DNA of 64,000 nt from an uncultured Thiothrix sp. (GTDB lineage: Bacteria > Pseudomonadota > Gammaproteobacteria > Poriferisulfidales > GCA-002705445). The notes beneath the pieces are model-generated. The model had not been told where the DNA came from and searched no databases. It saw only the letters and a program-made list of their open reading frames with translations. A program made the translations under genes and the position numbers. Shown here piece after piece: positions 18,924-33,497 of this stretch. Each line of letters begins with the position of its first letter. Position 1 is the stretch's first letter. The stretch covers positions 65,151 through 129,150 of the forward strand of contig CACJPG010000002.1 in NCBI GenBank assembly GCA_902595225.1. The letters are read 5' to 3'.

Positions 18924-20747
18924 ATGTGCGGTATTGTTGCAGCAGCATCACAAAATAACGTGGTAAATATATTAGCTGATGGGTTAAAACATCTAGAATA
19001 TAGAGGTTACGATTCAGCAGGCATAGCTGTTATTGAAAATGAAAATATACATAGTTATAAAAAAGAAGGACATGTTTCTGAACTAACTAGTATTCTAGGT
19101 AAAGATCTAGCCTCGAATATTGGTATAGCACATACAAGATGGGCTACACATGGAAAACCATCTGAAGCAAATGCTCATCCCCATATATCTGAAAATAGTA
19201 TCGCAATTGTTCATAATGGTATTATTGAAAACTATATTGAAATAAAAGAAAAATTTTTTAAAAACATTAAGCTAGAATCCGAAACAGATTCCGAAGTATT
19301 AGCACATCTTATAAATTTTTATGCAAAAGATAATAATATTCTAGATGCTGTACATTCTGCCTTAAAAGAAGTTAAAGGCTCTTATGCAATCGCAGTCTTA
19401 GATAAAAATAATTCTAGCGAAATAATAGTTGCGCGCCATGGCAGTCCTCTTATTATTGGTGTTGGTGAAGATTCTAATTTCATTGCGTCTGATGCTCATG
19501 CTTTAATTGAACATACAAATCAATTTATATATTTAGATGATGGCGATATGGCTTCAGTGAGTTCAAGCGAAATAAATATTTTCGATAAAGATAAAAATTC
19601 CGTAAATAGAGAAATAAAAAAAAGTAACATTTCATTAGGAAGTAATTCAAAAAATGGATTTGAGCACTTTATGCTTAAAGAAATTTTTGAACAACCAGAG
19701 GCGGTTAAAGCAACAATTCAAGACCGAATAATAAATAACTCTGTACCTAAAGAGATTTTAGGGCCAAGTGCTGAAAAATATCTTGATGGTTTTAAGGTGG
19801 TTCAAATCATTGCATGTGGAACGAGTTATCATGCAGCCTTATTAGCAAAACATTGGTTTGAAAAACTTGCTGGAATTCCCTGCCAGGCAGAAATCGCAAG
19901 TGAATTTAGATATAGGAAGCACGCTGTTCAACCTGGAACATTATCCATATGTATTTCACAGTCTGGAGAGACAGCAGATACTCTTTCGGCATTAAGACAA
20001 ATAAAAGAAGAAAAGAATTATATTGGCACCATTGCAATATGCAATGTGCCAGAAAGTTCAATTGCAAGAGAATGCGATTCAACTTTAATAACACATGCGG
20101 GTCCTGAAATCGGAGTTGCATCAACAAAGGCTTTTACAACACAATTGGTTGCCTTAATGCTTTTAATAATTGTACTCGGGAAAAATTTTGAAATTTCGGA
20201 AGAAATTGAAAAATCACTATGTGAACAATTACAAACTTTACCTGAAAAGATTAAAAGCACCTTGGATTTAGACCAAGAAATAGCAGAACTCTCAAAAATA
20301 TTTTCTAATAAGGAGCATGCTCTATTTTTAGGTCGAGGCTCACATTTCCCAATAGCCAGAGAGGGCGCTTTAAAACTTAAAGAAATATCTTATATTCACG
20401 CAGAAGCTTACGCTGCAGGCGAGCTAAAACATGGGCCGCTTGCTATTGTTGACGAAAATATGCCAGTAGTAGCGGTTGCTCCAAATAATGTTGTTTTAGA
20501 GAAACTGAAATCAAATCTTGAAGAAGTTAAAGCACGTGGTGGAAAACTTTATATATTTGCAGATAAAAAAGCTGGATTTAAAAGTGACGAGATTTCTCAA
20601 GTTTTTGAAATCGATGCACCGCTAAATCCTGTCGCTCCGATACTTTTTACCATTCCTTTGCAACTTTTAGCATATCACTGCGCCATTATTAAAGGTACAA
20701 ATGTTGATATGCCTCGCAACCTTGCCAAATCGGTTACAGTGGAATGA
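18924..20747 (+). CDS. glmS: glutamine--fructose-6-phosphate aminotransferase
   Basis: 607 aa with the N-terminal MCGIV nucleophile, two SIS domains, and the canonical C-terminus ...PRNLAKSVTVE. Confidence 0.98.
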   Translation: MCGIVAAASQNNVVNILADGLKHLEYRGYDSAGIAVIENENIHSYKKEGHVSELTSILGKDLASNIGIAHTRWATHGKPSEANAHPHISENSIAIVHNGIIENYIEIKEKFFKNIKLESETDSEVLAHLINFYAKDNNILDAVHSALKEVKGSYAIAVLDKNNSSEIIVARHGSPLIIGVGEDSNFIASDAHALIEHTNQFIYLDDGDMASVSSSEINIFDKDKNSVNREIKKSNISLGSNSKNGFEHFMLKEIFEQPEAVKATIQDRIINNSVPKEILGPSAEKYLDGFKVVQIIACGTSYHAALLAKHWFEKLAGIPCQAEIASEFRYRKHAVQPGTLSICISQSGETADTLSALRQIKEEKNYIGTIAICNVPESSIARECDSTLITHAGPEIGVASTKAFTTQLVALMLLIIVLGKNFEISEEIEKSLCEQLQTLPEKIKSTLDLDQEIAELSKIFSNKEHALFLGRGSHFPIAREGALKLKEISYIHAEAYAAGELKHGPLAIVDENMPVVAVAPNNVVLEKLKSNLEEVKARGGKLYIFADKKAGFKSDEISQVFEIDAPLNPVAPILFTIPLQLLAYHCAIIKGTNVDMPRNLAKSVTVE

Positions 20748-20770
20748 GTTTCATTGGACAGGATGGGTAG
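20730..20770 (+). repeat. repeat R0: the native glmS terminus (core tcggttacagtggaatga) plus right arm gtttcATTGGACAGGATGggtag
   Basis: The right arm immediately follows the glmS stop. There is no left arm; glmS coding sequence occupies that position. Confidence 0.8.
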
Positions 20771-20776
20771 AAAAAA

Positions 20777-21154
20777 ATGATGAATAAATTGATAAAAATA
20801 TTTTGCAATAGTTGTCTTGTTTTTTTAACAAGTATTTCTTTTGTTTTTGCAGAAGAGAATATATCTAATACATCTTGGTATATTTCTCATAATGATGGTC
20901 ATGAATATATTTTTCAATTTAATCCAGATGGAACTTGCCTCTATTTCCAGAAAAATTCTCCCACTGGAAATACTGGAAAAATCTATGATAACTGCAAATG
21001 GGTTAGGAAAAATAAAGTTTTAGTATTTGATTCTAATAATTATTATGCGGTACACATAGGCAGAATAGAAGGAAGAAGTATGACTGGTTATCGCGTATCA
21101 AATCACGACGTAGTAAAAAAAAGTACTTTTATTGGAAGAAGGATAGATAATTAA
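20777..21154 (+). CDS. cassette 1: small secreted protein of unknown function
   Basis: 125 aa with the Sec-type signal peptide ...LTSISFVFA/EE. No promoter module of its own, so probably read through from glmS. Confidence 0.6.
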   Translation: MMNKLIKIFCNSCLVFLTSISFVFAEENISNTSWYISHNDGHEYIFQFNPDGTCLYFQKNSPTGNTGKIYDNCKWVRKNKVLVFDSNNYYAVHIGRIEGRSMTGYRVSNHDVVKKSTFIGRRIDN

Positions 21155-21183
21155 ATGAGTAAACACAATACATTGAGACCGAT

Positions 21184-21293
21184 GAACATCCTGTCCAATC
21201 AAACGAAATCAGTCACGGTGGAGTAGTTAACTTCCGACATGATGGGTCAGTCCTAATTTTACAACCTCAACAATAATCCGTAGTATTAAAAGT
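21184..21293 (+). repeat. repeat R1: type A left arm, core tcagtcacggtggagtag, right arm, promoter-like module
   Basis: gaaCATCCTGTCCAATc...tcagtcacggtggagtag ttaacttccGACATGATGGgtcagtcctaatTTTACA-17-TAGTAT-7-ATG. Confidence 0.8.
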
Positions 21294-21698
21294 ATGAAAA
21301 TTAAATTACTCACAGTTTGTTTACTCTTAGTCACCTTGCAGGTGTTTGCAGAAAATAGATTTAATTGGACGCTAATATCTACCAGCACTGCTGATGATGG
21401 AAATAAATTTTATGGTGATATAAATAGCATCAGAAAGAACAAATCAGGAAATTATGTTGTTTGGATGTTACTTAATAACGTTGAAGGAGATTCTGTTGTT
21501 ACTTCTGAAGAGTATGATTGTACTCGATTAAGATTTAGATGGGTATATGTTGAACTCTATAGTCATCATTATGGAAAAGGAAAAAAAAAATTTACTGCTG
21601 ACACAGAAGAATTAAAACCAAAAGGTTATACTGATTGGATTTATCCTAAACCCAATTCAAATAATTACCATAAAGTTAATTTCGTTTGTGAAAAATGA
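21294..21698 (+). CDS. cassette 2: secreted protein, surface-adhesin protein E (Adhesin_E)-like fold family
   Basis: 134 aa, signal peptide MKIKLLTVCLLLVTLQVFA/E. Pattern W..I...(K)FY.D..SIRKN....VVWML.N...S...EYDC...R.R.....Y..HYGKG...W.YP......VNFVC matches my recollection of the Adhesin_E domain. Paralog of 22605-23003. Confidence 0.6.
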   Translation: MKIKLLTVCLLLVTLQVFAENRFNWTLISTSTADDGNKFYGDINSIRKNKSGNYVVWMLLNNVEGDSVVTSEEYDCTRLRFRWVYVELYSHHYGKGKKKFTADTEELKPKGYTDWIYPKPNSNNYHKVNFVCEK

Positions 21699-21815
21699 TG
21701 ACGATAACCATCATGTCCATACAAACGCAATCCGTAACAGTGGAGTAGTTAACTTCCGACAGGATGGGTCAGTCCAAATTTTACAATTTCAAAATAATCC
21801 GTATTATTAAAAAAA
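21698..21815 (+). repeat. repeat R2: type A left arm, core tccgtaacagtggagtag, right arm, promoter-like module
   Basis: ATGACGATAACCATCATGTCCat...tccgtaacagtggagtag ttaacttccGACAGGATGGgtcagtccaaatTTTACA-16-TATTAT-8-ATG. Confidence 0.8.
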
Positions 21816-22193
21816 ATGAAAATTAAAATATTTATAACTTGTCTATTTTTTTTATTTTCCGCCAACAGTTTTGCAGAATGGACGGAAATAGGCAGAAATG
21901 AAAAAAATGCTTTGTATATAGATTCTGAAAGAATAAGAAAAGATAATCTTGGGCACATATATGTTTATGTTTTGATGAATCACCTTAACGATGATGACCC
22001 CCGCTCTACAATTGCCTATTTCCAATGCGATTGTGATAAATTCTCATTTAAAATTTTGAAGGAGTTTTATCATAGAAAACTAATGGGTGTTGATAGATAC
22101 GATGATTACGCTGAACCAAAACCAGAATGGAATTACATTTATCCTGAATCAGGAAATGAACTGATTTTAAAGTATGCATGTGAAAATCTCTAA
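21816..22193 (+). CDS. cassette 3: secreted protein, Adhesin_E-like family
   Basis: 125 aa, signal peptide ...FSANSFA/E, then WTEIGRNEKNALYIDSERIRKD...YFQCDCDK...W.YIYPES...YACE. Paralog of 26430-26801. Confidence 0.55.
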   Translation: MKIKIFITCLFFLFSANSFAEWTEIGRNEKNALYIDSERIRKDNLGHIYVYVLMNHLNDDDPRSTIAYFQCDCDKFSFKILKEFYHRKLMGVDRYDDYAEPKPEWNYIYPESGNELILKYACENL

Positions 22194-22308
22194 TGACGAT
22201 AACCATCCTGTCAGAAGTAGAATATTCGGTAACAGTGGAATGAGTTTCAATGGACAGGATGAGTCAGTCCTAATTTTACAATCTTAAAATAATACGTATT
22301 ATTAAAGT
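22193..22308 (+). repeat. repeat R3: type A left arm, core tcggtaacagtggaatga, right arm, promoter-like module
   Basis: ATGACGATAACCATCCTGTCAGAAGT...tcggtaacagtggaatga gtttcaatGGACAGGATGAgtcagtcc.... Confidence 0.8.
22275..22302 (+). promoter_or_regulatory. representative cassette promoter-like module: TTTACA-16 nt-TATTAT ending 6 nt before the ATG (predicted leaderless transcript)
   Basis: The same arrangement recurs in R1, R2, R3, R7, R8, R9 and R10, with the -10-like hexamer 6-8 nt upstream of the ATG and no Shine-Dalgarno. R5 has the same TTTACA-16-TATTAT, but there the next ATG lies 33 nt downstream of the conserved attaaag. Housekeeping genes in this window have GGAG-type SD sequences. 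Confidence 0.45.
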
Positions 22309-22584
22309 ATGAAAATAAAAAAACTAGTAATTTCTTTAATATTATTTTGTAATCTTGCTTATGCCGCATCTGAAGAAAAGCAAATGGAATGGATTAATGA
22401 ATGTATTACACACACACCAAACAATATCTCATATGCTAGAGCAGTAGAATATTGTGGTTGTGCAACTAGAAAATTAATGGATCGATTTACAGAAAAGCAA
22501 ATAGATAACTCTTCTGCAGAAGATATCGCAAAGAATAAGTTAATGTCTGATATTGTTGAAGAATGTAATGCTGTAATAGAATGA
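22309..22584 (+). CDS. cassette 4, ORF a: small secreted Cys-containing protein
   Basis: 91 aa with signal peptide MKIKKLVISLILFCNLAYA/A. Confidence 0.55.
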   Translation: MKIKKLVISLILFCNLAYAASEEKQMEWINECITHTPNNISYARAVEYCGCATRKLMDRFTEKQIDNSSAEDIAKNKLMSDIVEECNAVIE

Positions 22585-22604
22585 ACAAATTTTTCTACTA
22601 ATAA

Positions 22605-23003
22605 ATGAAAACCAAACTACTCACAATCTGTTTACTTTTATTTTCTTCACAGTTGTTTGCAGAAAATTTATTTAATTGGACATACATAGCAACGAGTGAT
22701 GATGGTACTAAATATTATGCAGATAAAAATAGCATCAGAAAGAATAAATCAGGAAATTATATTGTTTGGATGTTAGATAATTCCAGTAAAGGAGATTCAT
22801 TAATTGCATCTGAAGAGTATGATTGTTCTAATTTAAGATATAGATTGGTATATGCTGCACTCTATAATAATCATTATGGAAAAGGGGGAAAAATAGGTTC
22901 TTATGACACAGAGCAATTAAAGTCAATAGGCAAATATAATTGGGTTTATCCTACACCGAAAACACCTAATGACTCTAAAGTTAATTGGGTTTGCAGAAAC
23001 TAA
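22605..23003 (+). CDS. cassette 4, ORF b: secreted protein, Adhesin_E-like family
   Basis: 132 aa, MKTKLLTICLLLFSSQLFA/E. Clear paralog of 21294-21698 (ENLFNWTYIATSDDGTKYYADKNSIRKNKSGNYIVWML...EEYDC...). Confidence 0.65.
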   Translation: MKTKLLTICLLLFSSQLFAENLFNWTYIATSDDGTKYYADKNSIRKNKSGNYIVWMLDNSSKGDSLIASEEYDCSNLRYRLVYAALYNNHYGKGGKIGSYDTEQLKSIGKYNWVYPTPKTPNDSKVNWVCRN

Positions 23004-23088
23004 AGATTAAAACAAAAAAAAGAATGGGAAAAGAAAAAGAAAAAATTTATAATATTTAAGATTTTAAAAAAATTATTGCTAAAAACTT

Positions 23089-23457
23089 ATGGATTTTAAA
23101 ACTGCTGTCAAAACATGTCTTATTGAAAAATATACAACTTTTTCTGGAAGAGCATCTAGATCGGAATACTGGTATTTCACTTTATTTACAACCATAGTTT
23201 TTATATGTGCGAATATTATAGATAATGCAATAGATCCGTATAGCATATTTGGAACATTCTACTTACTTTGCTTAGTGCTTTTAATTACGCCTATTATAGC
23301 ATGTGGTGCTAGAAGACTTCATGATATTGGAAGGTCTGGTTGGTGGTTATTAATTTATCTTACAGGTATTGGTTCAATCCTCATATTTATTTGGTCAATT
23401 ATAGCGGGAACCAAAAACGATAATGAGTATGGTATAAGTACTTACATTGGTAAATAA
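23089..23457 (+). CDS. cassette 4, ORF c: DUF805-family inner membrane protein
   Basis: 122 aa with motifs F.GRASRSEYWYF and RRLHDIGRSGWW characteristic of DUF805 (YhaH/YhaI-like). Multiple TM segments. Confidence 0.75.
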   Translation: MDFKTAVKTCLIEKYTTFSGRASRSEYWYFTLFTTIVFICANIIDNAIDPYSIFGTFYLLCLVLLITPIIACGARRLHDIGRSGWWLLIYLTGIGSILIFIWSIIAGTKNDNEYGISTYIGK

Positions 23458-23560
23458 TTGCACTACCACCTCCAACTCACCTTCCATAACGGTGGAGTAG
23501 TTGCTTTTGGACAGGGTGGGTCTGTTATCTCAGGGTCAGTTCCCTATCTATGTTTTACCA
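23458..23560 (+). repeat. repeat R4: type B left arm, core tccataacggtggagtag (V to I), right arm with a 14-nt insertion
   Basis: ttgcactaccacctccaactcaccttccataacggtggagtag ttgcttTTGGACAGGGTGGgtctgttatctcagggtcagttcc.... Confidence 0.75.
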
Positions 23561-23580
23561 ATATAGTGTTTAAATTATGC

Positions 23581-23611
23581 AATACTTCGAAAAATTGCTA
23601 TAAAGAGATTA
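23581..23611 (+). repeat. second upstream element, copy T2a (AATACTTCGAAAAATTGCTATAAAGAG...)
   Basis: Shares about 28 nt with 25484-25513 and 27781-27810. Followed by a truncated copy of the atgaaaaataa... start seen at 25514. Confidence 0.6.
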
Positions 23612-23646
23612 ATGAAAAATAAGTTTTTTTAAAGAAGGATCAAAAA

Positions 23647-23973
23647 ATGATAAGTATGAAATGGGTACTTTATATTATTGGTGTATCAAGTTGGATACTA
23701 TTTTTATATCAGAATACTGCAGAGAAATATGGATTCATGTCTGGCACCTTCTTTATGAACGGATACGGATTCTTAACAGGATTAATATCAGTAATTGTAT
23801 GCATTTTTTTGATGAGTGAGTTTTATGATTATTTAGAAATACTAGGAAGTTATTTTTTATTTCTATTAATTGCTGGTGCTTTAATTGGCGGATTGAAACA
23901 TCATGCACAGGGTTTAGGTTTATTTGGTCTTGTAATAGGGTACGTTTTATTTTTTATAAATAAATTTATTTAA
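23647..23973 (+). CDS. cassette 5, ORF a: small polytopic membrane protein
   Basis: 108 aa with 3-4 hydrophobic segments. Confidence 0.55.
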   Translation: MISMKWVLYIIGVSSWILFLYQNTAEKYGFMSGTFFMNGYGFLTGLISVIVCIFLMSEFYDYLEILGSYFLFLLIAGALIGGLKHHAQGLGLFGLVIGYVLFFINKFI

Positions 23974-23985
23974 CATGTTAAGAAA

Positions 23986-24741
23986 ATGAAAACCAAACTA
24001 CTCACAATCTGTTTACTCTTATTCACTTCGCAAGTGTTTGCAGAAGAATGCAAAGGAACAGATAAATCTAAGTGGAATAGTTGCATTGGCATAATAGATA
24101 CTTTTGAAAAAATAGAAGAAACAGATACAACGGAGGTTTGGGGTAGTGAAAAAATAGAAGGAAGATATGAGGGTGGTTTTGAACAAGGGTTATTTACTTC
24201 ACAATTTGAAGAAAAAATTATTCATAAAAATATTATTGTAAACGGTAAACATTTCTCAACCAGCAATCGTGGTTTTATGACTGGAAATTTTAAAGATGGA
24301 GTGCAAATAGGTTTATGGGGAGAATGTATCACTACCAATAACAGGTACAAACAATATAATCAGTTTGAAATTGGTAACTATAATAAACACGGGATTCGTG
24401 ATGGAGTTTGGGGACGTTTTTATTATGAAACAACTGCTTTTGATGGAAGTTTTGAAAAAACAGGATGTCATAAAAAAACAGTAGAATTATTTCTTGATAA
24501 AGAAAATTTATGCTCACAAAAGAAAAACAGTCATTTTGCAAGTTTTGAAACATATCTTAATGGCGAGAAAGTATCGGATTTTAACAAACTTTCTTGCAGA
24601 GGTCCGTCTGAATTTATTAATGGTTGGTTGGATTATATATCTACAATTGATGAAGAAAAATTATATTGTGAAGATACTTCATGCAAAAAACCAAGTAATA
24701 CCGACCCAGAATATGCAGAATGGATAAAGAATTTTGAATAA
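23986..24741 (+). CDS. cassette 5, ORF b: secreted protein with degenerate MORN/YwqK-like repeats
   Basis: 251 aa, MKTKLLTICLLLFTSQVFA/EECKG...W.SC.G. This N-module is shared with 27811 and 35688. Has G.xxG-type repeats (NFKDGVQIGLWGE, NKHGIRDGVWGRF). Confidence 0.55.
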   Translation: MKTKLLTICLLLFTSQVFAEECKGTDKSKWNSCIGIIDTFEKIEETDTTEVWGSEKIEGRYEGGFEQGLFTSQFEEKIIHKNIIVNGKHFSTSNRGFMTGNFKDGVQIGLWGECITTNNRYKQYNQFEIGNYNKHGIRDGVWGRFYYETTAFDGSFEKTGCHKKTVELFLDKENLCSQKKNSHFASFETYLNGEKVSDFNKLSCRGPSEFINGWLDYISTIDEEKLYCEDTSCKKPSNTDPEYAEWIKNFE

Positions 24742-24847
24742 CTGCACTATCACCTTCAAGTCACTTCTATCACAGTGGAATGAGTTTCATTGGAAAGGAT
24801 GGGTCAGTCCTAATTTTACAATCTCAAAATAATCCGTATTATTAAAG
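24742..24847 (+). repeat. repeat R5: type B left arm (1-nt deletion), core tctatcacagtggaatga (V to I), right arm, promoter-like module
   Basis: ctgcactatcaccttcaagtcacttctatcacagtggaatga gtttcATTGGAAAGGATGGgtcagtcctaatTTTACA-16-TATTAT. Confidence 0.8.
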
Positions 24848-24879
24848 ACATAAAAATATAAGAATTATATGAGACAAAG

Positions 24880-25320
24880 ATGGGATTATTTAGTTCAAAA
24901 CAAAACATTAGTAACGAAGGGGTATTTAAAAGTATTGTTGATACTATTGGATTTTTGAACTATTTTTTTACAGAAGTAGAAAAAGAAGATTTTACTAAGA
25001 ATACCAGTGAAGGCGTAAAATTTTTTGGAAGATTTTGTTATAATTTTGATGACATGTTTTATTATGCACTTGGTCGTGCAAATATCAAATTAAATAAAGA
25101 GCAAAAGCATAATGTGAAACTTGCATGTGGTTTAATCAGGGATTCACTTTGGGAACCAGAAATAAATGAGATTAAAAATTGTGTTGAGAAATTCTCAGAT
25201 TATCATAAACAAGCAAATGGAAAGTTGATTGCAGGATCTGACCATCCGATGTTTAAGGACTCGGCAACAAAAGTATTTAGAAAAGAACTCGCAGAGCATG
25301 GCATTACTTTTGTTGATTAG
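24880..25320 (+). CDS. cassette 6: hypothetical protein without a signal peptide
   Basis: 146 aa, no hydrophobic N-terminus. One of the few cargo ORFs with neither a signal peptide nor a TM segment. Confidence 0.5.
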   Translation: MGLFSSKQNISNEGVFKSIVDTIGFLNYFFTEVEKEDFTKNTSEGVKFFGRFCYNFDDMFYYALGRANIKLNKEQKHNVKLACGLIRDSLWEPEINEIKNCVEKFSDYHKQANGKLIAGSDHPMFKDSATKVFRKELAEHGITFVD

Positions 25321-25363
25321 CAACACTATCACCTCCAAGTCACCTTCCGTAACAGTGGAGTGA
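25321..25363 (+). repeat. repeat R6: type B left arm plus core tccgtaacagtggagtga; right arm degenerate or absent
   Basis: caacactatcacctccaagtcaccttccgtaacagtggagtga, then unrelated tgttaaacagttgg.... Confidence 0.7.
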
Positions 25364-25463
25364 TGTTAAACAGTTGGTTATGTAATGGGTAAATCGTAAA
25401 AATAGAATTCAGTAAGTATAAGGGTTTTAAGATGTCAGTTTTAGGGTAGTTTAGAGAACGATT

Positions 25464-25513
25464 GGAATGAGGAAAAACTATAAAAATATTTCAAAAATTG
25501 CTATAAAGAGAAT
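25464..25513 (+). repeat. second upstream element, copy T2b
   Basis: ggaatgaggaaaaactataaaaatatttcaaaaattgctataaagagaat compared with 27761-27810 ggaataaggaagaactataaaaatacttaaaaaattgctataaaggaagt gives 43/50 identical by hand count. Confidence 0.7.
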
Positions 25514-25678
25514 ATGAAAAATAATATGAAAGAGTGTGAAGGGTGTGGAAATACAGTTGCAGTATATGCTAATAAATGCCCTAACTGCGGTGCATATACA
25601 CATAAAAGTTTTCAAATAATAGAACTTATTTTTGCAATCTTGACAGTCTCCTTCATTGTATGGTGGTTTATATTGTAA
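25514..25678 (+). CDS. cassette 7, ORF a: small zinc-ribbon protein with a C-terminal TM anchor
   Basis: Below the ORF-track cutoff. Hand translation gives MKNNMKECEGCGNTVAVYANKCPNCGAYTHKSFQIIELIFAILTVSFIVWWFIL (54 aa) with CxxC-x10-CxxC and a hydrophobic tail. Confidence 0.5.
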   Translation: MKNNMKECEGCGNTVAVYANKCPNCGAYTHKSFQIIELIFAILTVSFIVWWFIL

Positions 25679-25745
25679 TGAAATATTCCATTACAATAAA
25701 AAATATCCACACCTACAAAATAACAATTACCCGTATCACGAAAAA

Positions 25746-26396
25746 ATGAAAACCAAACTACTCACAATCTGTTTGCTCTTAGTCACCTCGCAGGTGTTTG
25801 CAGAAGAATGGGCGAATATTTATACTAATAGCGGTGATAAACTTCAAATAGCATTGCCTGACGGGTATTGTGATATTACTCAAACAAATGAAGGTAAATT
25901 TATACTTAATCACTTGAATAAGACAAAACGAAATCTTTCTATTTATAAAAATTTTGAAGCAAAAATTGTATATAATTTATGTGGAAAAAAATATGATTAT
26001 CCATGGGGTTATATATTTTTTAATAATCAAAAATATTCTTCTTCATACACACAAACAGATTTAAACAAACTTGAATCTTCCTCTTTCAATAAAACTTATA
26101 TAAATGAAATAAAAGAAAAAACAAATAAAAGTCATGATATTAATAATCAAGATATAAAAATAGAGTCAGTAGATAGACCTGAATTAGTTTGGGAGGACAA
26201 AAATGCACTGATTTTTTATACCAATATACAGGCAAATATTGAAGGGCAGAAGTTTATTGAAGAGGTAACAGGTAGCACTATTTTATTTAATGGTTACCAA
26301 TTTTCTATGTACATTTATGACAAAAAAGGCGCGCAAAATTCTCTTCATAATTCTCAGTTACTTTTAAATGCTGCTAAATCGACTAAAAGTAGGTAA
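25746..26396 (+). CDS. cassette 7, ORF b: secreted protein of unknown function
   Basis: The track ORF starts at 25656. The internal ATG at 25746 gives the conserved MKTKLLTICLLLVTSQVFA/EE signal peptide, so it is the preferred start (216 aa). Confidence 0.6.
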   Translation: MKTKLLTICLLLVTSQVFAEEWANIYTNSGDKLQIALPDGYCDITQTNEGKFILNHLNKTKRNLSIYKNFEAKIVYNLCGKKYDYPWGYIFFNNQKYSSSYTQTDLNKLESSSFNKTYINEIKEKTNKSHDINNQDIKIESVDRPELVWEDKNALIFYTNIQANIEGQKFIEEVTGSTILFNGYQFSMYIYDKKGAQNSLHNSQLLLNAAKSTKSR

Positions 26397-26429
26397 ATTA
26401 TATACTTACTAAGTAGTTACTAAGTAAAT

Positions 26430-26801
26430 ATGAAAACCAAACTACTCACAATCTGTTTGCTCTTATTCACCTCGCAAGCGTTTGCAGGATGGACTGAGGT
26501 TGGTAAAAATAGCAGTGGTACAATTTTTTATGTAGACTTTGATAGAACTAAAGAGCATAACGGTTATAAATATTTTTATATGTTAGGTGATTACTTGACA
26601 CCATATAACAATGTTTTATCAACTGAATATTATATTCAACTTGATTGTAATAAATATAGATATAGACATATCAGTTTTATATTTTATGATCAATCCATGG
26701 GTAAAGGAAACGGCAGAGTAGATAACGAAATGATGAAGTGGGAAAATATAACTAAAGGTACTATGAATTATACTGTTAGTAAAAAAGTTTGCGATCGCTA
26801 A
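26430..26801 (+). CDS. cassette 7, ORF c: secreted protein, Adhesin_E-like family
   Basis: 123 aa, MKTKLLTICLLLFTSQAFA/G, then WTEVGKNSSGTIFYVDFDR...YIQLDCNKYRYR...GKGNG...W.NI...VC. Confidence 0.6.
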   Translation: MKTKLLTICLLLFTSQAFAGWTEVGKNSSGTIFYVDFDRTKEHNGYKYFYMLGDYLTPYNNVLSTEYYIQLDCNKYRYRHISFIFYDQSMGKGNGRVDNEMMKWENITKGTMNYTVSKKVCDR

Positions 26802-26836
26802 AACAATATTAAAATATATCAGTGTTTGATGCATAA

Positions 26837-26945
26837 TTACACTATCACCTCCAGCACAAATTCCGTCACCGTAGAATAATTTTGTATGGACAGGGTGGGT
26901 CAGTCCTAATTTTACAATATTAAAATAATTGGTATTATTGAAAGA
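26837..26945 (+). repeat. repeat R7: type B left arm, core tccgtcaccgtagaataa, right arm, promoter-like module
   Basis: ttacactatcacctccagcacaaattccgtcaccgtagaataa ttttgtaTGGACAGGGTGGgtcagtcctaatTTTACA-16-TATTAT-7-ATG. Confidence 0.8.
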
Positions 26946-27701
26946 ATGAAAACCAAACTACTCACAATCTGTTTACTCTTATTTACTTCACAGGTGTTTG
27001 CAGAAGGTAAATGGACTTCAACAAATAAACCTAATTGCTTAGTATGGGATCCGGCACCTAGAGACGAACAGACTGTTACATGGTCAGGAGAATGTAAATC
27101 TGGGAAAATACATGGCAAAGGTTTATTAACATGGAATTTTAAAACAAATGGTACACCTCAAACTCAATTAAACGAAGGTGAATTTAAAAATGGACGATTT
27201 TTTGGTCGATTTAAATATACATTTGAAAATGGTGATATATATATTGGTGATGTGCATGAGGAAACTGGAGATATGCACGGACGAGGCACTTATAAATATA
27301 TCAATGGTGATAAGTACGTTGGTGAATATAAGAATGGTCTACTTCACGGACGAGGCACTGCTACCTTAGCAGATGGAGCAGAATATGTTGGAGAATTTAA
27401 AGAAGACAATATGCACGGACGAGGCACTTTTACTTTTCCTGATGGAGAACAGTACATAGGCGAGTGGAAAGAAAATGTTATGCACGGACGAGGCACTTAT
27501 AATTATGCCAATGGTGATAAGTACGTTGGTGAGTACAAGAATGACAATATGCACGGACGAGGCACTTTTACTTATCACAATGGTGATAAGTACGTTGGCG
27601 AGTGGAAAGAAAATGTTATGCACGGACGAGGCACCTACACTTTTGCAGATGGAACAAAAAAAATTGGTCAATTTAAGAATGACGAATATATCGGCAAATA
27701 A
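26946..27701 (+). CDS. cassette 8, ORF a: secreted MORN-repeat protein
   Basis: 251 aa, conserved signal peptide, then about 8 MORN units (Y.GE.KN...HGRGT..Y.NGDK). Confidence 0.8.
   Translation: MKTKLLTICLLLFTSQVFAEGKWTSTNKPNCLVWDPAPRDEQTVTWSGECKSGKIHGKGLLTWNFKTNGTPQTQLNEGEFKNGRFFGRFKYTFENGDIYIGDVHEETGDMHGRGTYKYINGDKYVGEYKNGLLHGRGTATLADGAEYVGEFKEDNMHGRGTFTFPDGEQYIGEWKENVMHGRGTYNYANGDKYVGEYKNDNMHGRGTFTYHNGDKYVGEWKENVMHGRGTYTFADGTKKIGQFKNDEYIGK
27273..27686 (+). repeat. 69-bp (23-codon) tandem repeats inside the MORN gene
   Basis: The cacggacgaggcac motif recurs at 27276, 27345, 27414, 27483, 27552 and 27621, an exact 69-nt period. Confidence 0.85.
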
Positions 27702-27760
27702 TTAAATCATCATTACTTGTTAATTATTCCATTCCTATAGTAACTTCAAAATAAATTTCT

Positions 27761-27810
27761 GGAATAAGGAAGAACTATAAAAATACTTAAAAAATTGCTA
27801 TAAAGGAAGT
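27761..27810 (+). repeat. second upstream element, copy T2c
   Basis: See T2b. Directly precedes the ATG at 27811. Confidence 0.7.
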
Positions 27811-28329
27811 ATGAAAACCAAACTACTCACAATCTGTTTACTCTTATTTACTTCACAGGTGTTTGCAGAAGAATGCAAAGGAAATTATTGGGATAATTGT
27901 TACAGCGCATACACTTTTACCGGTAAGTATGCAGGTGATAAATACATTGGCGAATGGAAGGATAACAAAATGCACGGACTCGGCACTTATACTTATGCCA
28001 TTGGAGATAAATACGTAGGTGAGTTTAAAAACGGAGATTTTCACGGACTTGGCACTTACACTTATGCCAGTGGAGATAAATACTTTGGTGAATATAAAAA
28101 TAATAACAGACATGGACAAGGCACTTACACTTATGCCAGTGGAGATAAATACTTTGGTGAATATAAAAATGATGAAAGATATGGACAAGGCACTTACACT
28201 TATGCCAACGGAGACAAATACGCTGGTGGATTTAAAAATGGCAAGTTTCACGGACAAGGTACTTACACTTATGCCAACGGAGACAAAGAAGTTGGTCAAT
28301 GGGAAAACGACGCATACGTCGGCAAATAA
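27811..28329 (+). CDS. cassette 8, ORF b: secreted MORN-repeat protein
   Basis: 172 aa, MKTKLLTICLLLFTSQVFA/EECKG..., with about 5-6 MORN units (GTYTYA.GDKY.GE.KN...HG.). Confidence 0.8.
   Translation: MKTKLLTICLLLFTSQVFAEECKGNYWDNCYSAYTFTGKYAGDKYIGEWKDNKMHGLGTYTYAIGDKYVGEFKNGDFHGLGTYTYASGDKYFGEYKNNNRHGQGTYTYASGDKYFGEYKNDERYGQGTYTYANGDKYAGGFKNGKFHGQGTYTYANGDKEVGQWENDAYVGK
27970..28310 (+). repeat. 69-bp tandem repeats inside the second MORN gene
   Basis: Unit-start codons at 27973, 28042, 28111, 28180 and 28249, period 69 nt. The units starting at 28111 and 28180 are nearly identical. Confidence 0.85.
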
Positions 28330-28438
28330 TTACTCTGTCACCTCCAACTCACCTTCCGTCACCGTGGAATAATTTTGTATGGACATGATGGGTCAGTCCT
28401 AATTTTACAATCTCAAAATAATCAGTAATATCAGTAGT
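28330..28438 (+). repeat. repeat R8: type B left arm, core tccgtcaccgtggaataa, right arm, promoter-like module
   Basis: ttactctgtcacctccaactcaccttccgtcaccgtggaataa ttttgtaTGGACATGATGGgtcagtcctaatTTTACA-16-TAATAT-7-ATG. Confidence 0.8.
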
Positions 28439-28780
28439 ATGAAAACCAAACTACTCGCAATCTGTTTACTCTTATTCACCTCGCAGGTGTTTGCGGCAGA
28501 TGTATTTGTATGTTCTTATAAAAATTATAAAAACGAGACACGTACATACACTTATATCAGAAAAGATGATGGTAAATTTGTTACCTTTTTAGACGATGTT
28601 GAAATTCCAATGGTAAAAACATATGAAGATAATACATACTTACATCTTGTAGTGTCATTTGAAAATTATTTATTCGCTAGGGTAATTAACAAAATAACTA
28701 AAAAGGTTGAGCAAGTGGGTATAGAAGAATCTAAAACATCAACTGTAGATAAAGTTTATGGAACTTGTAAGGTTAGATAA
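28439..28780 (+). CDS. cassette 9, ORF a: small secreted protein
   Basis: 113 aa, MKTKLLAICLLLFTSQVFA/A. Confidence 0.6.
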   Translation: MKTKLLAICLLLFTSQVFAADVFVCSYKNYKNETRTYTYIRKDDGKFVTFLDDVEIPMVKTYEDNTYLHLVVSFENYLFARVINKITKKVEQVGIEESKTSTVDKVYGTCKVR

Positions 28781-28823
28781 AAAAACGTAATCTACTTTAT
28801 AATAACAACTGAGGTACAAAAGT

Positions 28824-29180
28824 ATGAATATGATTGAATCTGTGACTACATGTTTAAGTAAATATTTTACGTTTGAAGGAGTTGCGACAAGACCAGAATA
28901 TTGGTGGTTCCAATTATTTTATTTCATAGTGATAATAGTCGGTATTGTGCTTGATGGTAATTCTACAAATTCCTGGGATCGAAATTATTACGGATATTGG
29001 GAACTAATATTTACATTATTATTTTTTATACCAGCAATTTCAGTGAGTTGTAGAAGACTTCATGATTTGGGTAAGTCAGGATGGTGGCAATTAATTGGGA
29101 TTACAATTATTGGTCTTATTCCATTGATTTACTGGTTTTGCAAAGAGGGAGGAGTTACAAGCAAATATTCTAGTGAATAA
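28824..29180 (+). CDS. cassette 9, ORF b: DUF805-family inner membrane protein
   Basis: 118 aa with F.G.ATRPEYWWF and RRLHDLGKSGWW motifs. Diverged paralog of 23089-23457. Confidence 0.75.
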   Translation: MNMIESVTTCLSKYFTFEGVATRPEYWWFQLFYFIVIIVGIVLDGNSTNSWDRNYYGYWELIFTLLFFIPAISVSCRRLHDLGKSGWWQLIGITIIGLIPLIYWFCKEGGVTSKYSSE

Positions 29181-29288
29181 TTGCACTATCACCTCCAACT
29201 CACATTCCGTAACAGTGGAATGAGTTCGTTTGGAAAGGGTGGGTCGGTCTGAATTTTACATTTTTTAAATATTCCGTATTATTTAAAT
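29181..29288 (+). repeat. repeat R9: type B left arm, core tccgtaacagtggaatga, right arm, promoter-like module
   Basis: ttgcactatcacctccaactcacattccgtaacagtggaatga gttcgtTTGGAAAGGGTGGgtcggtctgaatTTTACA-16-TATTAT-6-ATG. Confidence 0.8.
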
Positions 29289-29702
29289 ATGAAAATTAAA
29301 CTACTCGCAATCTGTTTACTTTTATTATCCTCGCAAGTGTTTGCGGATCCTGATTATAAGTGGAAGTATATGGCAGAAGGAAAGACTTATTTTTGGTATT
29401 GGGATAGCAAAAATTTGACTGAAAAAAATGATAATTATCTTTTGTGGGTATTATATGATAATAAATATATAGAAAAAGGTATAGGTTCTCAGGTTGCGCT
29501 AATTGAAATTGATTGTGCTTACAACAGATATAAGAATATTTACATAGAGTCTTATGATGGCCAAATGGCAAAAGGGAGAATGCTACATAAAATGAGTTCT
29601 GAAGATTTGCCAGATCATGATTTATGGAAATGGACTTTCATGATAAAAAATAAAAATATCCATAATTTATATTTTCTTTCTTATTGTGATAAAAGGAAAT
29701 AA
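29289..29702 (+). CDS. cassette 10: secreted protein, Adhesin_E-like family (divergent)
   Basis: 137 aa, MKIKLLAICLLLLSSQVFA/D, then W.Y....YFWYWDSKNL......LLWVLYDN....S.VALIEIDCAYNRYK...Y.G.MAKG...W.W....YCD. Confidence 0.5.
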   Translation: MKIKLLAICLLLLSSQVFADPDYKWKYMAEGKTYFWYWDSKNLTEKNDNYLLWVLYDNKYIEKGIGSQVALIEIDCAYNRYKNIYIESYDGQMAKGRMLHKMSSEDLPDHDLWKWTFMIKNKNIHNLYFLSYCDKRK

Positions 29703-29724
29703 TTGAATTTTAAGTGAATATAAG

Positions 29725-29830
29725 CCCCCTGTTTAAACAAACGAAATCAGTCACAGTGGAGTAGTTGCTTTTAGGAAGGATGGGTCCGTCCTAATTTTAC
29801 AATCTCAACAATAATTCGTATTATTGAAGT
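29725..29830 (+). repeat. repeat R10: degenerate type A left arm, core tcagtcacagtggagtag, right arm, promoter-like module
   Basis: ccccctgtttaaacaaacgaaatcagtcacagtggagtag ttgcttttaGGAAGGATGGgtccgtcctaatTTTACA-17-TATTAT-6-ATG. The spacer aaacgaaatcagtcac is shared with R1. Confidence 0.75.
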
Positions 29831-30190
29831 ATGAAAACTAAATTATTGATAACCTGCTTGTTATTTGCACCCTTATTAAGTTGGGGAGTAGATATGATTT
29901 CACCAATAAATTTTAATCCAACCCCTGCGAACAAGAATAAAGTAATTTCGTTTATTAAATATAATGTTAAAGAAACATATTCAAGAATTGGAATGGACAG
30001 TGAGTCAACTTTAAGAATGATGGAAGAAGAAGAGTTGAGGTGTTTTAAAGAACTTACAAAAGTACAAGATATCAATTTATTAAAGAGAGTTAAACGACAA
30101 CTTTGCAACATCGGTATGTGCACTTATTCTACTATTCTCATGATGTACAATGAAGAAGTCAGAGCGTCTAAAAAAAATCTTGAGTGGTAA
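29831..30190 (+). CDS. cassette 11, ORF a: small secreted protein
   Basis: 119 aa, MKTKLLITCLLFAPLLSWG.... Confidence 0.55.
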   Translation: MKTKLLITCLLFAPLLSWGVDMISPINFNPTPANKNKVISFIKYNVKETYSRIGMDSESTLRMMEEEELRCFKELTKVQDINLLKRVKRQLCNIGMCTYSTILMMYNEEVRASKKNLEW

Positions 30191-30203
30191 AATATAATAA
30201 AAA

Positions 30204-30548: not shown

Positions 30549-30569
30549 AAATAATAAAAAGAGGATATC

Positions 30570-30875: not shown

Positions 30876-30932
30876 AATCAGTATTATTTACTTTTTTGGA
30901 TTTGAAAATTAAATTTAGGGAGATGGTTTTAA

Positions 30933-31229: not shown

Positions 31230-31238
31230 TATGCTGAA

Positions 31239-31287
31239 GACGATAACCATCCTTTCCATATAAAAACATTCGGTAACAGTCGAATAA
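31239..31287 (+). repeat. repeat R11 (array terminus): type A left arm plus core tcggtaacagtcgaataa, with no right arm or module
   Basis: GACGATAACCATCCTTTCCatataaaaacattcggtaacagtcgaataa, followed by unrelated attattagaagtgc.... Confidence 0.8.
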
Positions 31288-33478: not shown

Positions 33479-33497
33479 GTCAAATACAAGTTTCATT

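What the first reader, a model, noticed from the sequence alone, without database searches (positions are those of the whole stretch)
20748..22225. Compensatory covariation links the two ends of the same cassette, not the two arms of one junction
The right arm at the start of a cassette pairs better with the left arm at the end of that same cassette than with the left arm in its own junction.
- Cassette 1: ATTGGACAGGATG (20753-20765) against CATCCTGTCCAAT (21187-21199) is 13/13 complementary.
- Cassette 2: GACATGATGG (21236-21245) against CCATCATGTC (21708-21717) is 10/10. Both carry the same variant, ATG/CAT instead of the consensus AGG/CCT.
- Cassette 3: ACTTCCGACAGGATGG (21752-21767) against CCATCCTGTCAGAAGT (22203-22218) is 15/16.
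- Cassette 11: GGAAGGATGG (29774-29783) against CCATCCTTTCC (31247-31257) shares the C-to-A / G-to-T variant, with a 1-nt indel.

Within single junctions (R1, R2) the arms mismatch at exactly these variant positions. This implies that the unit of mobility is right arm-cargo-left arm, and that the exchange point lies between the arms, in or near the SVTVE core. A circularised cassette would then carry an imperfect palindrome of about 60 bp. Type B left arms pair only with bulges, so the evidence is clean only for the type A cassettes.
Basis: seen in the sequence. Interest (0 to 1): 0.8.

Follow-up and report, generated by a model that had tools for sequence, protein, structure and literature searches.

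The report
Serine-recombinase gene-cassette array behind glmS
The mirrored "arms" are the two halves of the attachment site of a large serine recombinase. They bound 11 small mobile gene cassettes stacked behind the essential gene glmS of an uncultured marine bacterium, so this is an integron-like array built by a different kind of enzyme.

Summary
All quoted coordinates and matches check out. Same-cassette arms match better than same-junction arms in the window (permutation p=0.006). The same holds in 53 type-A cassettes from about 90 related marine contigs: 14.9 versus 13.4 of 21 mirrored positions (p<=1e-4), while same-junction arms show no excess (p=0.37).

Each cassette is right arm, cargo, left arm. 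The exchange point is the invariant A7-C8 of the Thr codon in the repeated glmS end (TCN GTN ACN GTG GAR stop), which is also the dyad axis of four unrelated arm families.

The enzyme is not in the window. Related contigs carry a 737-749-aa large serine recombinase (LSR) whose own reading frame runs through left arm, core and right arm, so integration splits the gene. One such element is a ~7.5-kb circle. The window holds only recombinase remnants, so its 11 cassettes are non-autonomous. They carry exported adhesin-like, MORN-repeat and DUF805 proteins, most with their own promoter-like leader.

The mirror symmetry fits the half-sites of a double-stranded serine-recombinase site rather than a folded attC-like hairpin, but this is not proven. 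I found no published description. It is a new variant of a known kind.

The parts
18924..20747 (+). glmS. Its last 18 nt (20730-20747, SVTVE + stop) form the chromosomal target (attB core).
   Evidence: ORF list. GlmS homologues carry GATase/SIS domains. The core matches the repeat pattern.
20707..20766 (+). J0: glmS coding half-site (B), core, right arm P' (attL-like). There is no left arm.
20737..21215 (+). Cassette 1 (479 bp): a 125-aa ORF (20777-21154) plus a recombinase pseudogene remnant (21049-21255). Its arms match 13/13.
   Evidence: tblastn E=2.8e-7, with stops. It is 92.6% identical to the cassette in L010, whose glmS 3' end is 65% identical.
21186..21245 (+). J1: left arm P of cassette 1, core (21209-21226), right arm P' of cassette 2 (hybrid attP-like).
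21216..21737 (+). Cassette 2: Adhesin_E-family exported protein (21294-21698). Promoter-like leader at 21258-21286.
21708..21767 (+). J2: P of cassette 2, core (21731-21748), P' of cassette 3.
21738..22232 (+). Cassette 3: Adhesin_E-family protein (21816-22193). Leader at 21780-21807. Its arms match 15/16.
22203..22262 (+). J3: P of cassette 3, core (22226-22243), P' of cassette 4.
22233..23489 (+). Cassette 4: three ORFs (a 91-aa ORF, Adhesin_E, DUF805). Leader at 22275-22302. Type-B left arm.
   Evidence: Its head is shared with L066 and L077 behind different left neighbours.
23460..23519 (+). J4: type-B left arm, core (23483-23500, SITVE variant), P' of cassette 5.
23490..24772 (+). Cassette 5: remnant of the recombinase C-terminal domain (23488-23568), a 108-aa membrane ORF and a 251-aa ORF. 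Type-B left arm.
   Evidence: The 251-aa gene plus its arm is 96-98% identical (blastn) to cassettes in L068 and L081, with other neighbours.
24743..24802 (+). J5: type-B left arm, core (24766-24783), P' of cassette 6.
24773..25352 (+). Cassette 6: a 146-aa ORF. Leader at 24815-24842. Type-B left arm.
25323..25363 (+). J6: type-B left arm and core (25346-25363). No right arm follows (degenerate junction).
25353..26868 (+). Cassette 7: a 246-aa ORF and an Adhesin_E protein. It lacks a right arm and has a type-B left arm.
26839..26898 (+). J7: type-B left arm, core (26862-26879), P' of cassette 8.
26869..28361 (+). Cassette 8: two MORN-repeat proteins with signal peptides. Leader at 26911-26938. 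Type-B left arm.
28332..28391 (+). J8: type-B left arm, core (28355-28372), P' of cassette 9.
28362..29212 (+). Cassette 9: a 113-aa ORF and DUF805. Leader at 28404-28431. Type-B left arm.
29183..29242 (+). J9: type-B left arm, core (29206-29223), P' of cassette 10.
29213..29753 (+). Cassette 10: Adhesin_E-like protein. Leader at 29255-29282. Degenerate type-A left arm; the spacers still mirror (TTCGTTTG).
29724..29783 (+). J10: degenerate P arm, core (29747-29764), P' of cassette 11 (1-nt offset).
29754..31276 (+). Cassette 11: four small ORFs, including DUF6804. Leader at 29796-29824. Type-A left arm.
31247..31287 (+). J11: left arm P of cassette 11 and core (31270-31287), followed by native downstream DNA (attR-like, no right arm).
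   Evidence: The downstream genes directly follow glmS at the empty site in relative L099.

Best explanation
The 12 junctions are attachment-site products of a large serine recombinase (LSR) that integrates circular DNA into the last codons of glmS.

Site anatomy. The free-form site (attP) is a ~60-bp pseudo-palindrome made of left arm P, an 18-nt copy of the glmS end, and right arm P'. Double-strand exchange takes place at the central dinucleotide A7-C8, which is the first two bases of the Thr codon.

Consequences of integration. An integrated unit is P', cargo, P. Its P' side supplies a new ...(T)VE-stop, so GlmS stays intact. Successive insertions give:
- B.P' at glmS (J0);
- hybrid P.P' sites between cassettes (J1-J10);
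- P.B' at the far end (J11).

Why the two ends match. The two arms of one cassette are the two half-sites of one attP, adjacent in the circular form and inherited as one module. The two arms of a chromosomal junction come from different cassettes.

Status of the window's cassettes. They keep only remnants of the recombinase gene, so they are non-autonomous and must be moved in trans. The mover would be an LSR encoded elsewhere, for example on a ~7.5-kb circular element of the kind seen in related samples.

Shown:
- the anatomy of the sites;
- the exchange point;
- the mirror statistics;
- that the recombinase gene contains the site;
- occupied and empty sites in near-identical hosts;
- the same cassettes in different contexts.

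Inferred:
- that this LSR is the catalyst;
- that it acts on double-stranded DNA;
- that new cassettes enter mainly at the glmS-proximal site;
- that the window's cassettes are still mobile.
For: Arms and core form one site.
- 12 cores against 0.18 expected. J0 lacks a left arm and J11 lacks a right arm.

Exchange point.
- Linkage of core positions in 186 distinct junctions switches from the left flank (positions 3, 4, 6: z=11.7, 6.8, 5.4) to the right flank (positions 12, 15, 17, 18: z=5.8, 9.2, 23, 17), with position 9 mostly right.
- Three copies of one cassette share TC[T/C]ATCA and then diverge from position 9 on.
- The dyad axis is at 7.5 for four unrelated arm families: 14.3, 15.7, 19 and 17 of 20, against at most 12 for any other axis.

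Enzyme.
- In six full-length genes (737-749 aa) the reading frame runs through P, core and P', and the 11-nt outer motif TG[G/A]ACA[G/T]G[A/G]TG is mirrored 11/11 in five different variants.
- Pfam finds Resolvase plus Recombinase domains and the sequence has YLRVSTKEQ. Zn_ribbon_recom is present in relatives. The nearest solved structure is the A118 integrase.
- LSR attP sites are known to be pseudo-palindromic, with ~25-bp half-sites around a central dinucleotide (PMC3783163).
- A 40%-identical LSR in a Ca. Thioglobus MAG overlaps the last 18 nt of glmS, and that 8.7-kb element has 19/19 mirrored arms.

Free form.
- L027 and L040 are circular permutations at 99% identity.

Mobility.
- An empty site (L099) and occupied sites (L100, L101) occur with the identical GlmS protein. 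Strains with identical GlmS carry different first cassettes.
- Cassette 1 is 92.6% identical across hosts whose glmS 3' end is 65% identical.

Non-autonomy in the window.
- Only short recombinase remnants are present.
Against: - No recombinase gene lies in the 64-kb window, and no activity is shown.
- Canonical LSRs recombine only attP with attB (PMC3783163). Building an 11-cassette array needs attP x attL, attP x attR or attP x attP reactions, or a relaxed enzyme such as the staphylococcal Ccr recombinases.
- Six of the 11 window cassettes have type-B left arms that do not mirror P'.
- No circular mini-cassette contig was found.
- The outer arms are extremely diverse between families yet mirrored within each cassette. 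That is also the signature of structure-based recognition.
- L027 and L040 have identical recombinase sequence up to the P arm but different, mirrored arms. The catalytic, RD and ZD domains therefore do not dictate the arm variants.
Confidence: 0.78

Rival explanations
1. Structure-based (attC-like) recombination. The circular cassette's palindrome folds as a single-stranded hairpin or extrudes as a cruciform, and the recombinase recognises shape rather than sequence. The arm covariation would then be true compensatory base pairing.
For: - At least six unrelated arm sequences are mirrored about the same axis around the same core.
- Spacer positions 12-18 vary freely but covary.
- Reconstituted circular junctions of type-A cassettes fold at -10 to -16 kcal/mol as ssDNA, against -3 to -9 for the chromosomal junctions.
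- The ~7.5-kb circle encodes a weak HUH Rep match, which hints at single-stranded replication intermediates.
- Two 99.9%-identical circles differ in both arms in a mirrored way.
Against: - The exchange point would lie in the loop of such a hairpin, not in the stem. This is unlike attC, where cleavage is in the paired R box.
- The associated enzyme is a serine recombinase, a class known to act on duplex DNA.
- Mismatches between arms show no G.T wobble excess: 45 top-strand, 42 bottom-strand and 144 transversion-type.
- Type-B cassettes form no hairpin.
- Perfectly mirrored outer motifs are ordinary for LSR attP sites (own knowledge of the Bxb1 and phiC31 attP sites; PMC3783163).
Confidence: 0.1
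2. Fossil array. The junctions are scars of successive integrations of full-length elements that later lost their interior by deletion. The present mini-cassettes would no longer be mobile units, and the arm matching is merely inherited.
For: - The window has only recombinase remnants.
- J6 has lost its right arm and J10 has a decayed left arm.
- Cassettes next to glmS are more symmetric than distal ones (13.7 against 10.9 of 21, p=0.003). They also keep an intact C-terminal-domain ORF more often (10/35 against 3/120, p=2e-5).
Against: - Small cassettes with the same boundaries recur at 89-98% identity behind different neighbours and in hosts with very different glmS.
- Strains with identical GlmS differ in occupancy and in their first cassette.
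- Arms remain mirrored in 46 independent cargo clusters.
Confidence: 0.15
3. A classical integron or another tyrosine-recombinase system (IntI, Xer, or a phage-type integrase targeting the glmS 3' end) makes the array.
For: - The array consists of small, mostly single-gene cassettes separated by imperfect palindromes.
- A 199-aa Phage_integrase-domain gene sits beside the LSR in the Thioglobus element.
Against: - No tyrosine recombinase was found among the 30 window ORFs scanned: 10 large ORFs downstream of the array and the 20 cassette ORFs.
- None was found in the ~7.5-kb circle.
- No run of 6-8 identical bases is available for a tyrosine-recombinase overlap region, because the core varies at every third base.
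- The crossover is at the dyad centre, not at an R' box at one end.
- No Rfam or attC-like hit.
Confidence: 0.03

Closest known systems
Phage-type large serine integrases (A118/LI, Bxb1, phiC31) and their attP/attB sites
   Same: - Resolvase catalytic domain plus recombinase domain plus zinc-ribbon/coiled-coil region.
- Pseudo-palindromic attP with mirrored outer motifs.
- Exchange at a central dinucleotide.
- attB shares only the centre with attP.
   Different: - Only 22-25% identical to any annotated phage or plasmid LSR.
- Half-sites of about 29-30 bp.
- attP lies inside the recombinase ORF.
- An extra ~120-aa C-terminal domain.
- Tandem arrays imply reactions that canonical LSRs do not perform.
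SCCmec and other SCC elements (Ccr large serine recombinases at the 3' end of rlmH/orfX in staphylococci)
   Same: - An LSR targets the last codons of a conserved housekeeping gene near the replication origin.
- The gene end is restored.
- Tandem composite arrays include recombinase-less elements moved in trans, with defence and surface cargo (PMC11470126, listed).
   Different: - The target is glmS, not rlmH, and the hosts are marine gammaproteobacteria.
- Cassettes are 0.5-1.5 kb with one to four genes, against tens of kb.
- The recombinase gene is split by its own site.
- Orthology to Ccr was not tested.
Integrons (IntI, attI, attC cassette arrays)
   Same: - An ordered array of small, mostly single-gene cassettes at one chromosomal site, separated by imperfect palindromes.
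- The cassette's recombination site is split between its two ends.
- Non-autonomous cassettes.
   Different: - A serine rather than a tyrosine recombinase.
- Exchange at the centre of the palindrome, not at the R' box.
- No platform integrase or Pc promoter next to the array.
- Most cassettes carry their own promoter-like leader.
SSV1-type archaeal integrases and myxophage Mx8 Int (attP inside the integrase gene)
   Same: Integration partitions or alters the integrase gene, because attP lies within its coding sequence (PMC8371274, listed, for the archaeal case; own knowledge for Mx8).
   Different: Those are tyrosine recombinases that target tRNA genes. Here it is a bacterial LSR that targets a protein-coding gene end.
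Tycheposons and accretion of integrative elements (Prochlorococcus islands; CIME/ICE accretion)
   Same: Repeated site-specific integration at one site pushes older elements distally, leaving partial target repeats and degenerate elements in marine bacteria (10.1101/2020.12.28.424599).
   Different: Those are mostly tyrosine recombinases at tRNA genes, with larger elements. No intragenic attP is reported there, and the preprint does not mention glmS (0 occurrences).

Membership tests
Large serine recombinase (LSR) integration system | Recombinase with an N-terminal resolvase-type catalytic domain and a serine nucleophile | tested here: met
   Met in related loci, not in the window. Pfam Resolvase E=3.5e-12 and the motif YLRVSTKEQ. 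The window has only remnants.
Large serine recombinase (LSR) integration system | Recombinase domain plus zinc-ribbon/coiled-coil C-terminal region | tested here: met
   Pfam Recombinase E=5.7e-17. PF13408 is precomputed in many relatives. A118 integrase 6DNW aligns to residues 189-410, E=6e-6.
Large serine recombinase (LSR) integration system | Pseudo-palindromic attP with two half-sites around a central dinucleotide | tested here: met
   Six intact sites have an 11/11 mirrored outer motif. The axis is at A7|C8 in four arm families.
Large serine recombinase (LSR) integration system | Exchange at the central dinucleotide, which is identical in attP and attB | tested here: met
   Linkage switches between position 6 and position 9. 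Three-way breakpoints agree. A7 and C8 are invariant. Actual cleavage was not assayed.
Large serine recombinase (LSR) integration system | Strict attP x attB selectivity, with excision only in the presence of a directionality factor | tested here: inconclusive
   The array architecture (B.P', ten internal junctions that are mostly P.P', and P.B') is not what a single strict attP x attB reaction gives. No directionality factor was identified.
Large serine recombinase (LSR) integration system | Catalytic activity on these sites | not testable with these tools
   Needs an in vivo or in vitro recombination assay.
Integron | IntI-type tyrosine recombinase with an adjacent attI and a Pc promoter | tested here: not met
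   No Phage_integrase hit among the 30 window ORFs scanned. The array starts at glmS.
Integron | attC sites (R''-L''...L'-R') with exchange in the R' box at one end | tested here: not met
   Exchange is at the dyad centre. There are no GTTRRRY/RYYYAAC boxes at the arm ends.
SCC elements (Ccr recombinases) | Integration into the 3' end of rlmH by CcrAB or CcrC | tested here: not met
   The target is glmS. Orthology to Ccr was not examined; the nearest annotated phage or plasmid LSRs are only 22-25% identical.
Tn7-like elements at attTn7 | Insertion downstream of glmS with a 5-bp duplication, Tn7 ends and tnsABCD | tested here: not met
   The duplicated sequence is the 18-nt glmS end, and the exchange lies inside the Thr codon. 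None of the 30 scanned ORFs matched a transposase or any other Tns-type family.
SSV1/Mx8-type integrases with intragenic attP | attP inside the integrase ORF | tested here: met
SSV1/Mx8-type integrases with intragenic attP | Tyrosine recombinase chemistry | tested here: not met
   The enzyme here is a serine recombinase.

The most novel reading that the evidence does not exclude
This is a serine-recombinase counterpart of the integron. A clade of LSRs targets only the protein-constrained bases of the glmS end, which would give a broad host range. These LSRs carry attP inside their own gene, so integration detaches a ~120-aa C-terminal DNA-binding domain. That domain persists as a stand-alone ORF abutting glmS, and it, rather than the catalytic/RD/ZD part, co-varies with the arms. 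The detached domain could set arm specificity and/or switch directionality. That would allow attP x attL reactions, which stack promoter-bearing mini-cassettes into arrays.
Probability: 0.25. Interest if true: 0.8.

Novelty: new variant of a known kind. Interest (0 to 1): 0.66.

Why it matters
- It would show that integron-like accumulation of small, self-expressed gene cassettes can be built on serine-recombinase chemistry, at the end of an essential gene next to the replication origin. The hosts are abundant uncultured marine gammaproteobacteria whose glmS proteins are as little as 46% identical.
- It explains why metagenome assemblies of these organisms break right after glmS.
- It points to a hypervariable locus for surface proteins and restriction-modification systems.
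- It offers a family of recombinases whose target is nearly universal in bacteria, since SVTVE-stop is highly conserved. That is of practical interest for genome engineering.
- The split recombinase gene and the retained C-terminal fragment offer a testable new way of controlling LSR directionality.

Tried and rejected
- Integrase in the window: Pfam on 10 large ORFs downstream of the array and on all 20 cassette ORFs found none.
- Rfam on the array: no hit.
- IMG/VR scan for relatives of the LSR: nothing confirmed.
- Exact look-up of the window's GlmS: not on record.
- Circular mini-cassette contigs: none among the fetched loci have exact terminal repeats. The L027 circle was only seen through permutation against L040.
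- G.T wobble asymmetry as a test for strand folding: no signal.
- Type-B left arms as shifted mirrors of P': a weak secondary peak at a +1.5 axis shift, but the set was contaminated by type-A arms, so inconclusive.
- Terminator reading of the junctions: only one terminator-like hit in 11 kb, fewer than in shuffles.
- Promoter-like sites as a whole are not enriched in this AT-rich region (57 against 61.7). Only their fixed position in 8 cassettes is notable.
- Literature searches on glmS with serine recombinase, on intragenic attP, on cassette arrays and on SUP05 with glmS found no description of this system. One search failed on syntax.
- My first alignment of L027 with L040 used wrong coordinates and was redone.
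Full report
**What is there.**
The window runs through gidA/gidB, parAB, the atp operon, glmU and glmS (18924-20747), as shown by the ORF list and by the same gene order in relatives.

The last 18 nt of glmS, TCGGTTACAGTGGAATGA (SVTVE-stop), recur 11 more times downstream, up to 31270. That makes 12 matches to TCNRTNACNGTNGARTRR, where 0.18 are expected.
- The copies vary at positions 3, 6, 9, 12 and 15 (codon third bases), at 17/18 (stop-codon variants) and at 4 (Val or Ile).
- Each internal copy has a left arm upstream. It is either type A, GAYGATAACCATCCTGTCC..., or type B, AATAATTRCACTATCACCTCCAACTCACCT.
- Each internal copy except J6 also has a right arm, ..TTGGACAGGATGGGT.
- The true glmS end (J0) has only a right arm. 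The last copy (J11) has only a left arm.

**Check of the observation.**

A full right-by-left matrix inside the window gives these mean alignment scores:

| Pair type | Mean score |
|---|---|
| Same cassette | 7.95 |
| Same junction | 5.55 |
| All other pairs | 6.29 |

The permutation test gives p=0.006 for alignment score and p=0.013 for duplex energy. The window alone is thin evidence, for three reasons:
- L2 actually matches R8 18/18.
- L11 matches R5 better than its own partner.
- Six cassettes have type-B arms.

I therefore fetched homologous junctions.
- One scan of genome contigs gave 4 loci.
- One scan of metagenome contigs gave 87 stretches, all marine: Tara, Arctic and GOS.
- Together they yield about 200 junctions.

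I scored mirror identity in a fixed register, over positions 12-32 from the dyad axis.

| Set | Observed | Comparison | p |
|---|---|---|---|
| 108 distinct cassettes | 11.56 | random pairs 9.73; same-junction pairs 8.87 | <=2e-4 |
| 53 cassettes with type-A arms | 14.92 | null 13.39+-0.21 | <=1e-4 |
| 67 same-junction pairs (type-A arms) | 13.12 | null 13.05 | 0.37 |
| One cassette per cargo cluster (46 clusters) | 14.84 | null 13.25 | 0.0005 |

Covariation sits at spacer positions 12, 13, 15 and 17 and at motif positions 23, 25 and 27.

**Where the exchange happens.**
- In 186 distinct junctions, core positions 3, 4 and 6 carry information only about the left flank (z=11.7, 6.8, 5.4; right z<=1). 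Positions 12, 15, 17 and 18 carry information only about the right flank (z=5.8, 9.2, 23.1, 16.9). Position 9 is mostly linked to the right.
- The cassette carrying the 251-aa gene 23986-24741 recurs in L068 and L081 at 96-98% identity. All three copies share the unusual TC[T/C]ATCA. From position 9 on they differ, each with a different neighbour.
- Conversely, L066 and L077 share CAGTAGAATAA plus the right arm behind different left arms.
- The dyad axis of the arms falls between A7 and C8 for the main arm family (14.3 of 20). The same holds for three unrelated arm families (15.7, 19 and 17 of 20). No other axis exceeds 12.

A7-C8, the invariant first two bases of the Thr codon, is therefore the candidate crossover dinucleotide. 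Cassette limits in the window follow from it (see the parts list).

**What enzyme.**
The window has none. In the oriented locus L023, however, a 749-aa ORF with YLRVSTKEQ reads straight through left arm, core and right arm.
- Pfam finds a Resolvase catalytic domain and a Recombinase domain, with a second Recombinase stretch near the C-terminus.
- Relatives carry the zinc-ribbon domain.
- The nearest solved structure is the A118 integrase.
- Six different full-length genes (L023, L027, L040, L096, L097, L098) all contain the site at about residue 625. In every one the 11-nt outer motif TG[G/A]ACA[G/T]G[A/G]TG is mirrored 11/11, in five different variants.

This is the anatomy described for serine-integrase attP sites: pseudo-palindromic, with half-sites contacted by the recombinase and zinc-ribbon domains around a central dinucleotide (PMC3783163).

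L027 and L040 are circular permutations of one another at 99% identity. This indicates a ~7.5-kb circle or a tandem repeat. It carries the LSR, a small serine resolvase and a weak HUH Rep match.

A 40%-identical LSR in a Ca. Thioglobus MAG lies convergent to glmS and overlaps its last 18 nt. That 8.7-kb element has different arms (ATTTGGATTGTACC) that are mirrored 19/19.

The window itself keeps only fragments:
- a ~70-codon pseudogene piece at 21049-21255 (E=2.8e-7, with stops);
- matches of about 20-27 codons across the junctions.

**Consequence for the finding.**
Integration by exchange at A7-C8 puts P' at the left end and P at the right end of each unit.
- The two ends of one cassette are the two half-sites of one attP. 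They are contiguous in the circle and are inherited together.
- A chromosomal junction joins half-sites of two different cassettes.

That explains why the diagonal of the matrix is the cassette and not the junction.

The P' side must also restore ...T V E stop for GlmS, which explains its coding-like conservation. As an inference, the recombinase may read only bases that synonymous change cannot alter. That would fit the very wide host range: the GlmS proteins of the host loci are 46-99% identical to the window's.

**Is it mobile now?**
- A Tara scaffold whose GlmS is 88% identical to the window's has an empty site. There glmS is followed directly by homologues of window 31648-32002 and 32306-32600. 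Two other contigs encoding the identical GlmS protein are occupied.
- Strains with another identical GlmS carry different first cassettes.
- Cassette 1 is 92.6% identical to the only cassette of L010, whose glmS 3' end is 65% identical.
- Cassettes adjacent to glmS are more symmetric than later ones (13.7 against 10.9, p=0.003).
- Cassettes adjacent to glmS also carry an intact C-terminal recombinase fragment more often (10/35 against 3/120, p=2e-5). This fits entry at the glmS-proximal site followed by decay distally.
- No circular mini-cassette contig was found, so current mobility of the window's own cassettes is inferred.

**Base pairing or protein half-sites?**

For folding:
- Arm sequences differ completely between families yet are mirrored within cassettes.
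- The spacers covary.
- Reconstituted type-A circle junctions fold better as ssDNA than the chromosomal junctions, -10 to -16 against -3 to -9 kcal/mol.
- L027 and L040 differ by 2 bases in 3770 up to the outer edge of the P arm. They then differ in both arms in a mirrored way and on into the C-terminal domain.

Against folding:
- The exchange point would be in the loop of the hairpin.
- The enzyme class works on duplex DNA.
- Arm mismatches show no wobble excess: 45, 42 and 144.
- Type-B cassettes do not fold.
- Mirrored outer motifs are normal for LSR attP sites.

One search also shows that the catalytic, RD and ZD parts do not dictate the arm variant. I cannot separate these two.

**Cargo and expression.**
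- The cassettes encode small exported or envelope proteins: Adhesin_E family (six, one of them truncated), MORN-repeat proteins (two), DUF805 (two), DUF6804, and ORFs with no family match.
- Eight cassettes carry TTTACA-16/17-TATTAT at a fixed distance after the right arm.
- Ten genes share a ~98-nt start region that includes the signal peptide.
- Related cassettes carry type I restriction-modification systems.

**Comparison and novelty.**
The system works like a serine-integrase system, and the recombinase is an LSR by sequence. The overall arrangement most resembles SCC elements at rlmH: an LSR, the end of a housekeeping gene near the origin, tandem composites and recombinase-less passengers.

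The array of tiny cassettes resembles an integron, but it fails the integron tests for enzyme class and crossover position. An intragenic attP that splits the integrase is known for SSV1-type and Mx8 tyrosine integrases.

Five literature searches found no description of a glmS-targeting LSR, of its split gene or of such arrays. The nearest annotated phage or plasmid LSRs are 22-25% identical. I rate it a new variant of a known kind.

**Open points.**
- Type-B (and type-C) left arms.
- How arrays grow, given canonical LSR selectivity.
- Why the ~120-aa C-terminal fragment is kept as a stand-alone ORF. It occurs in at least 73 protein clusters, down to 42% identity, and abuts glmS in further genomes.

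Noticed in passing
window 21257-30264 (for example 23949-24046): A ~98-nt module is conserved at the DNA level at the head of 10 cassette genes whose mature parts are unrelated. It comprises a promoter-like TTTACA-16/17-TATTAT, a ribosome site, an ATG and a signal peptide MKTKLLTICLLLF..QVFAE. It looks like a shared expression and secretion leader.
   Followed up: partly
window 27244-28309: Two neighbouring genes consist of 69-nt tandem repeats that encode MORN repeats behind a signal peptide (Pfam MORN E=5e-45 and 2e-39).
   Followed up: partly
L099 11807-12630; L100, L101; L102-L104: The site is empty in one Tara scaffold and occupied in two others that encode the identical GlmS protein. In a second species, different first cassettes follow an identical GlmS. 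Many metagenome contigs end 50-130 nt after glmS, as expected for a hypervariable repeat locus.
   Followed up: yes
L027 (whole), L040 (whole): The two contigs are circular permutations at 99% identity of a ~7.5-kb element. It carries the LSR (attP inside the gene), a 205-aa serine resolvase and a 194-aa protein with a weak HUH Rep match (REP_ORF2-G2P, E=2e-4). The two copies are identical up to the outer edge of the left arm, then differ through both arms and the C-terminal domain.
   Followed up: partly
L092 1-13573 (Ca. Thioglobus sp. GCA_028370735.1): An 8.7-kb element behind glmS carries a protein-primed family-B DNA polymerase, a 199-aa tyrosine-recombinase-domain protein and a 580-aa LSR. 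The LSR's 3' end overlaps the last 18 nt of glmS on the opposite strand. Its arms are unrelated to those of the window but are mirrored 19/19.
   Followed up: partly
L063 122-481, L087 5286-5639, L105 10001-10378, L107 10001-10309: The last ~120 residues of the LSR survive as an intact stand-alone ORF that starts at or over the glmS stop codon, in cassettes that have lost the catalytic part. At least 73 protein clusters exist, down to 42% identity. The ORF is strongly enriched in the cassette next to glmS.
   Followed up: partly
L018, L043, L045 (D/D' arms); L018, L024 (C/C' arms); L107 12018-13120: Further arm families share the same core and axis: GACCCGACGGTGATT, GTATAAGTAGCGATTTTGTAATT and AACAAAACAGAGAAT. 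Each is mirrored between the two ends of its own cassette, and they are interleaved with the main family in the same arrays.
   Followed up: partly
window 29203-29222 and other TCC-type cores: With a TCC serine codon the core is itself partly palindromic (TTCCGTAACAGTGGAA), which scores as the only terminator-like hairpin in the array. This is probably the inner, recombinase-domain part of the two half-sites.
   Followed up: no
window 31288-34000: DNA beyond the last junction has no further cores, but it holds small genes resembling cassette cargo, for example 32005-32289, which starts MKTKLL. The order of two blocks differs from the empty-site relative L099, so this may be old, fully decayed cassettes or a rearrangement.
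   Followed up: no
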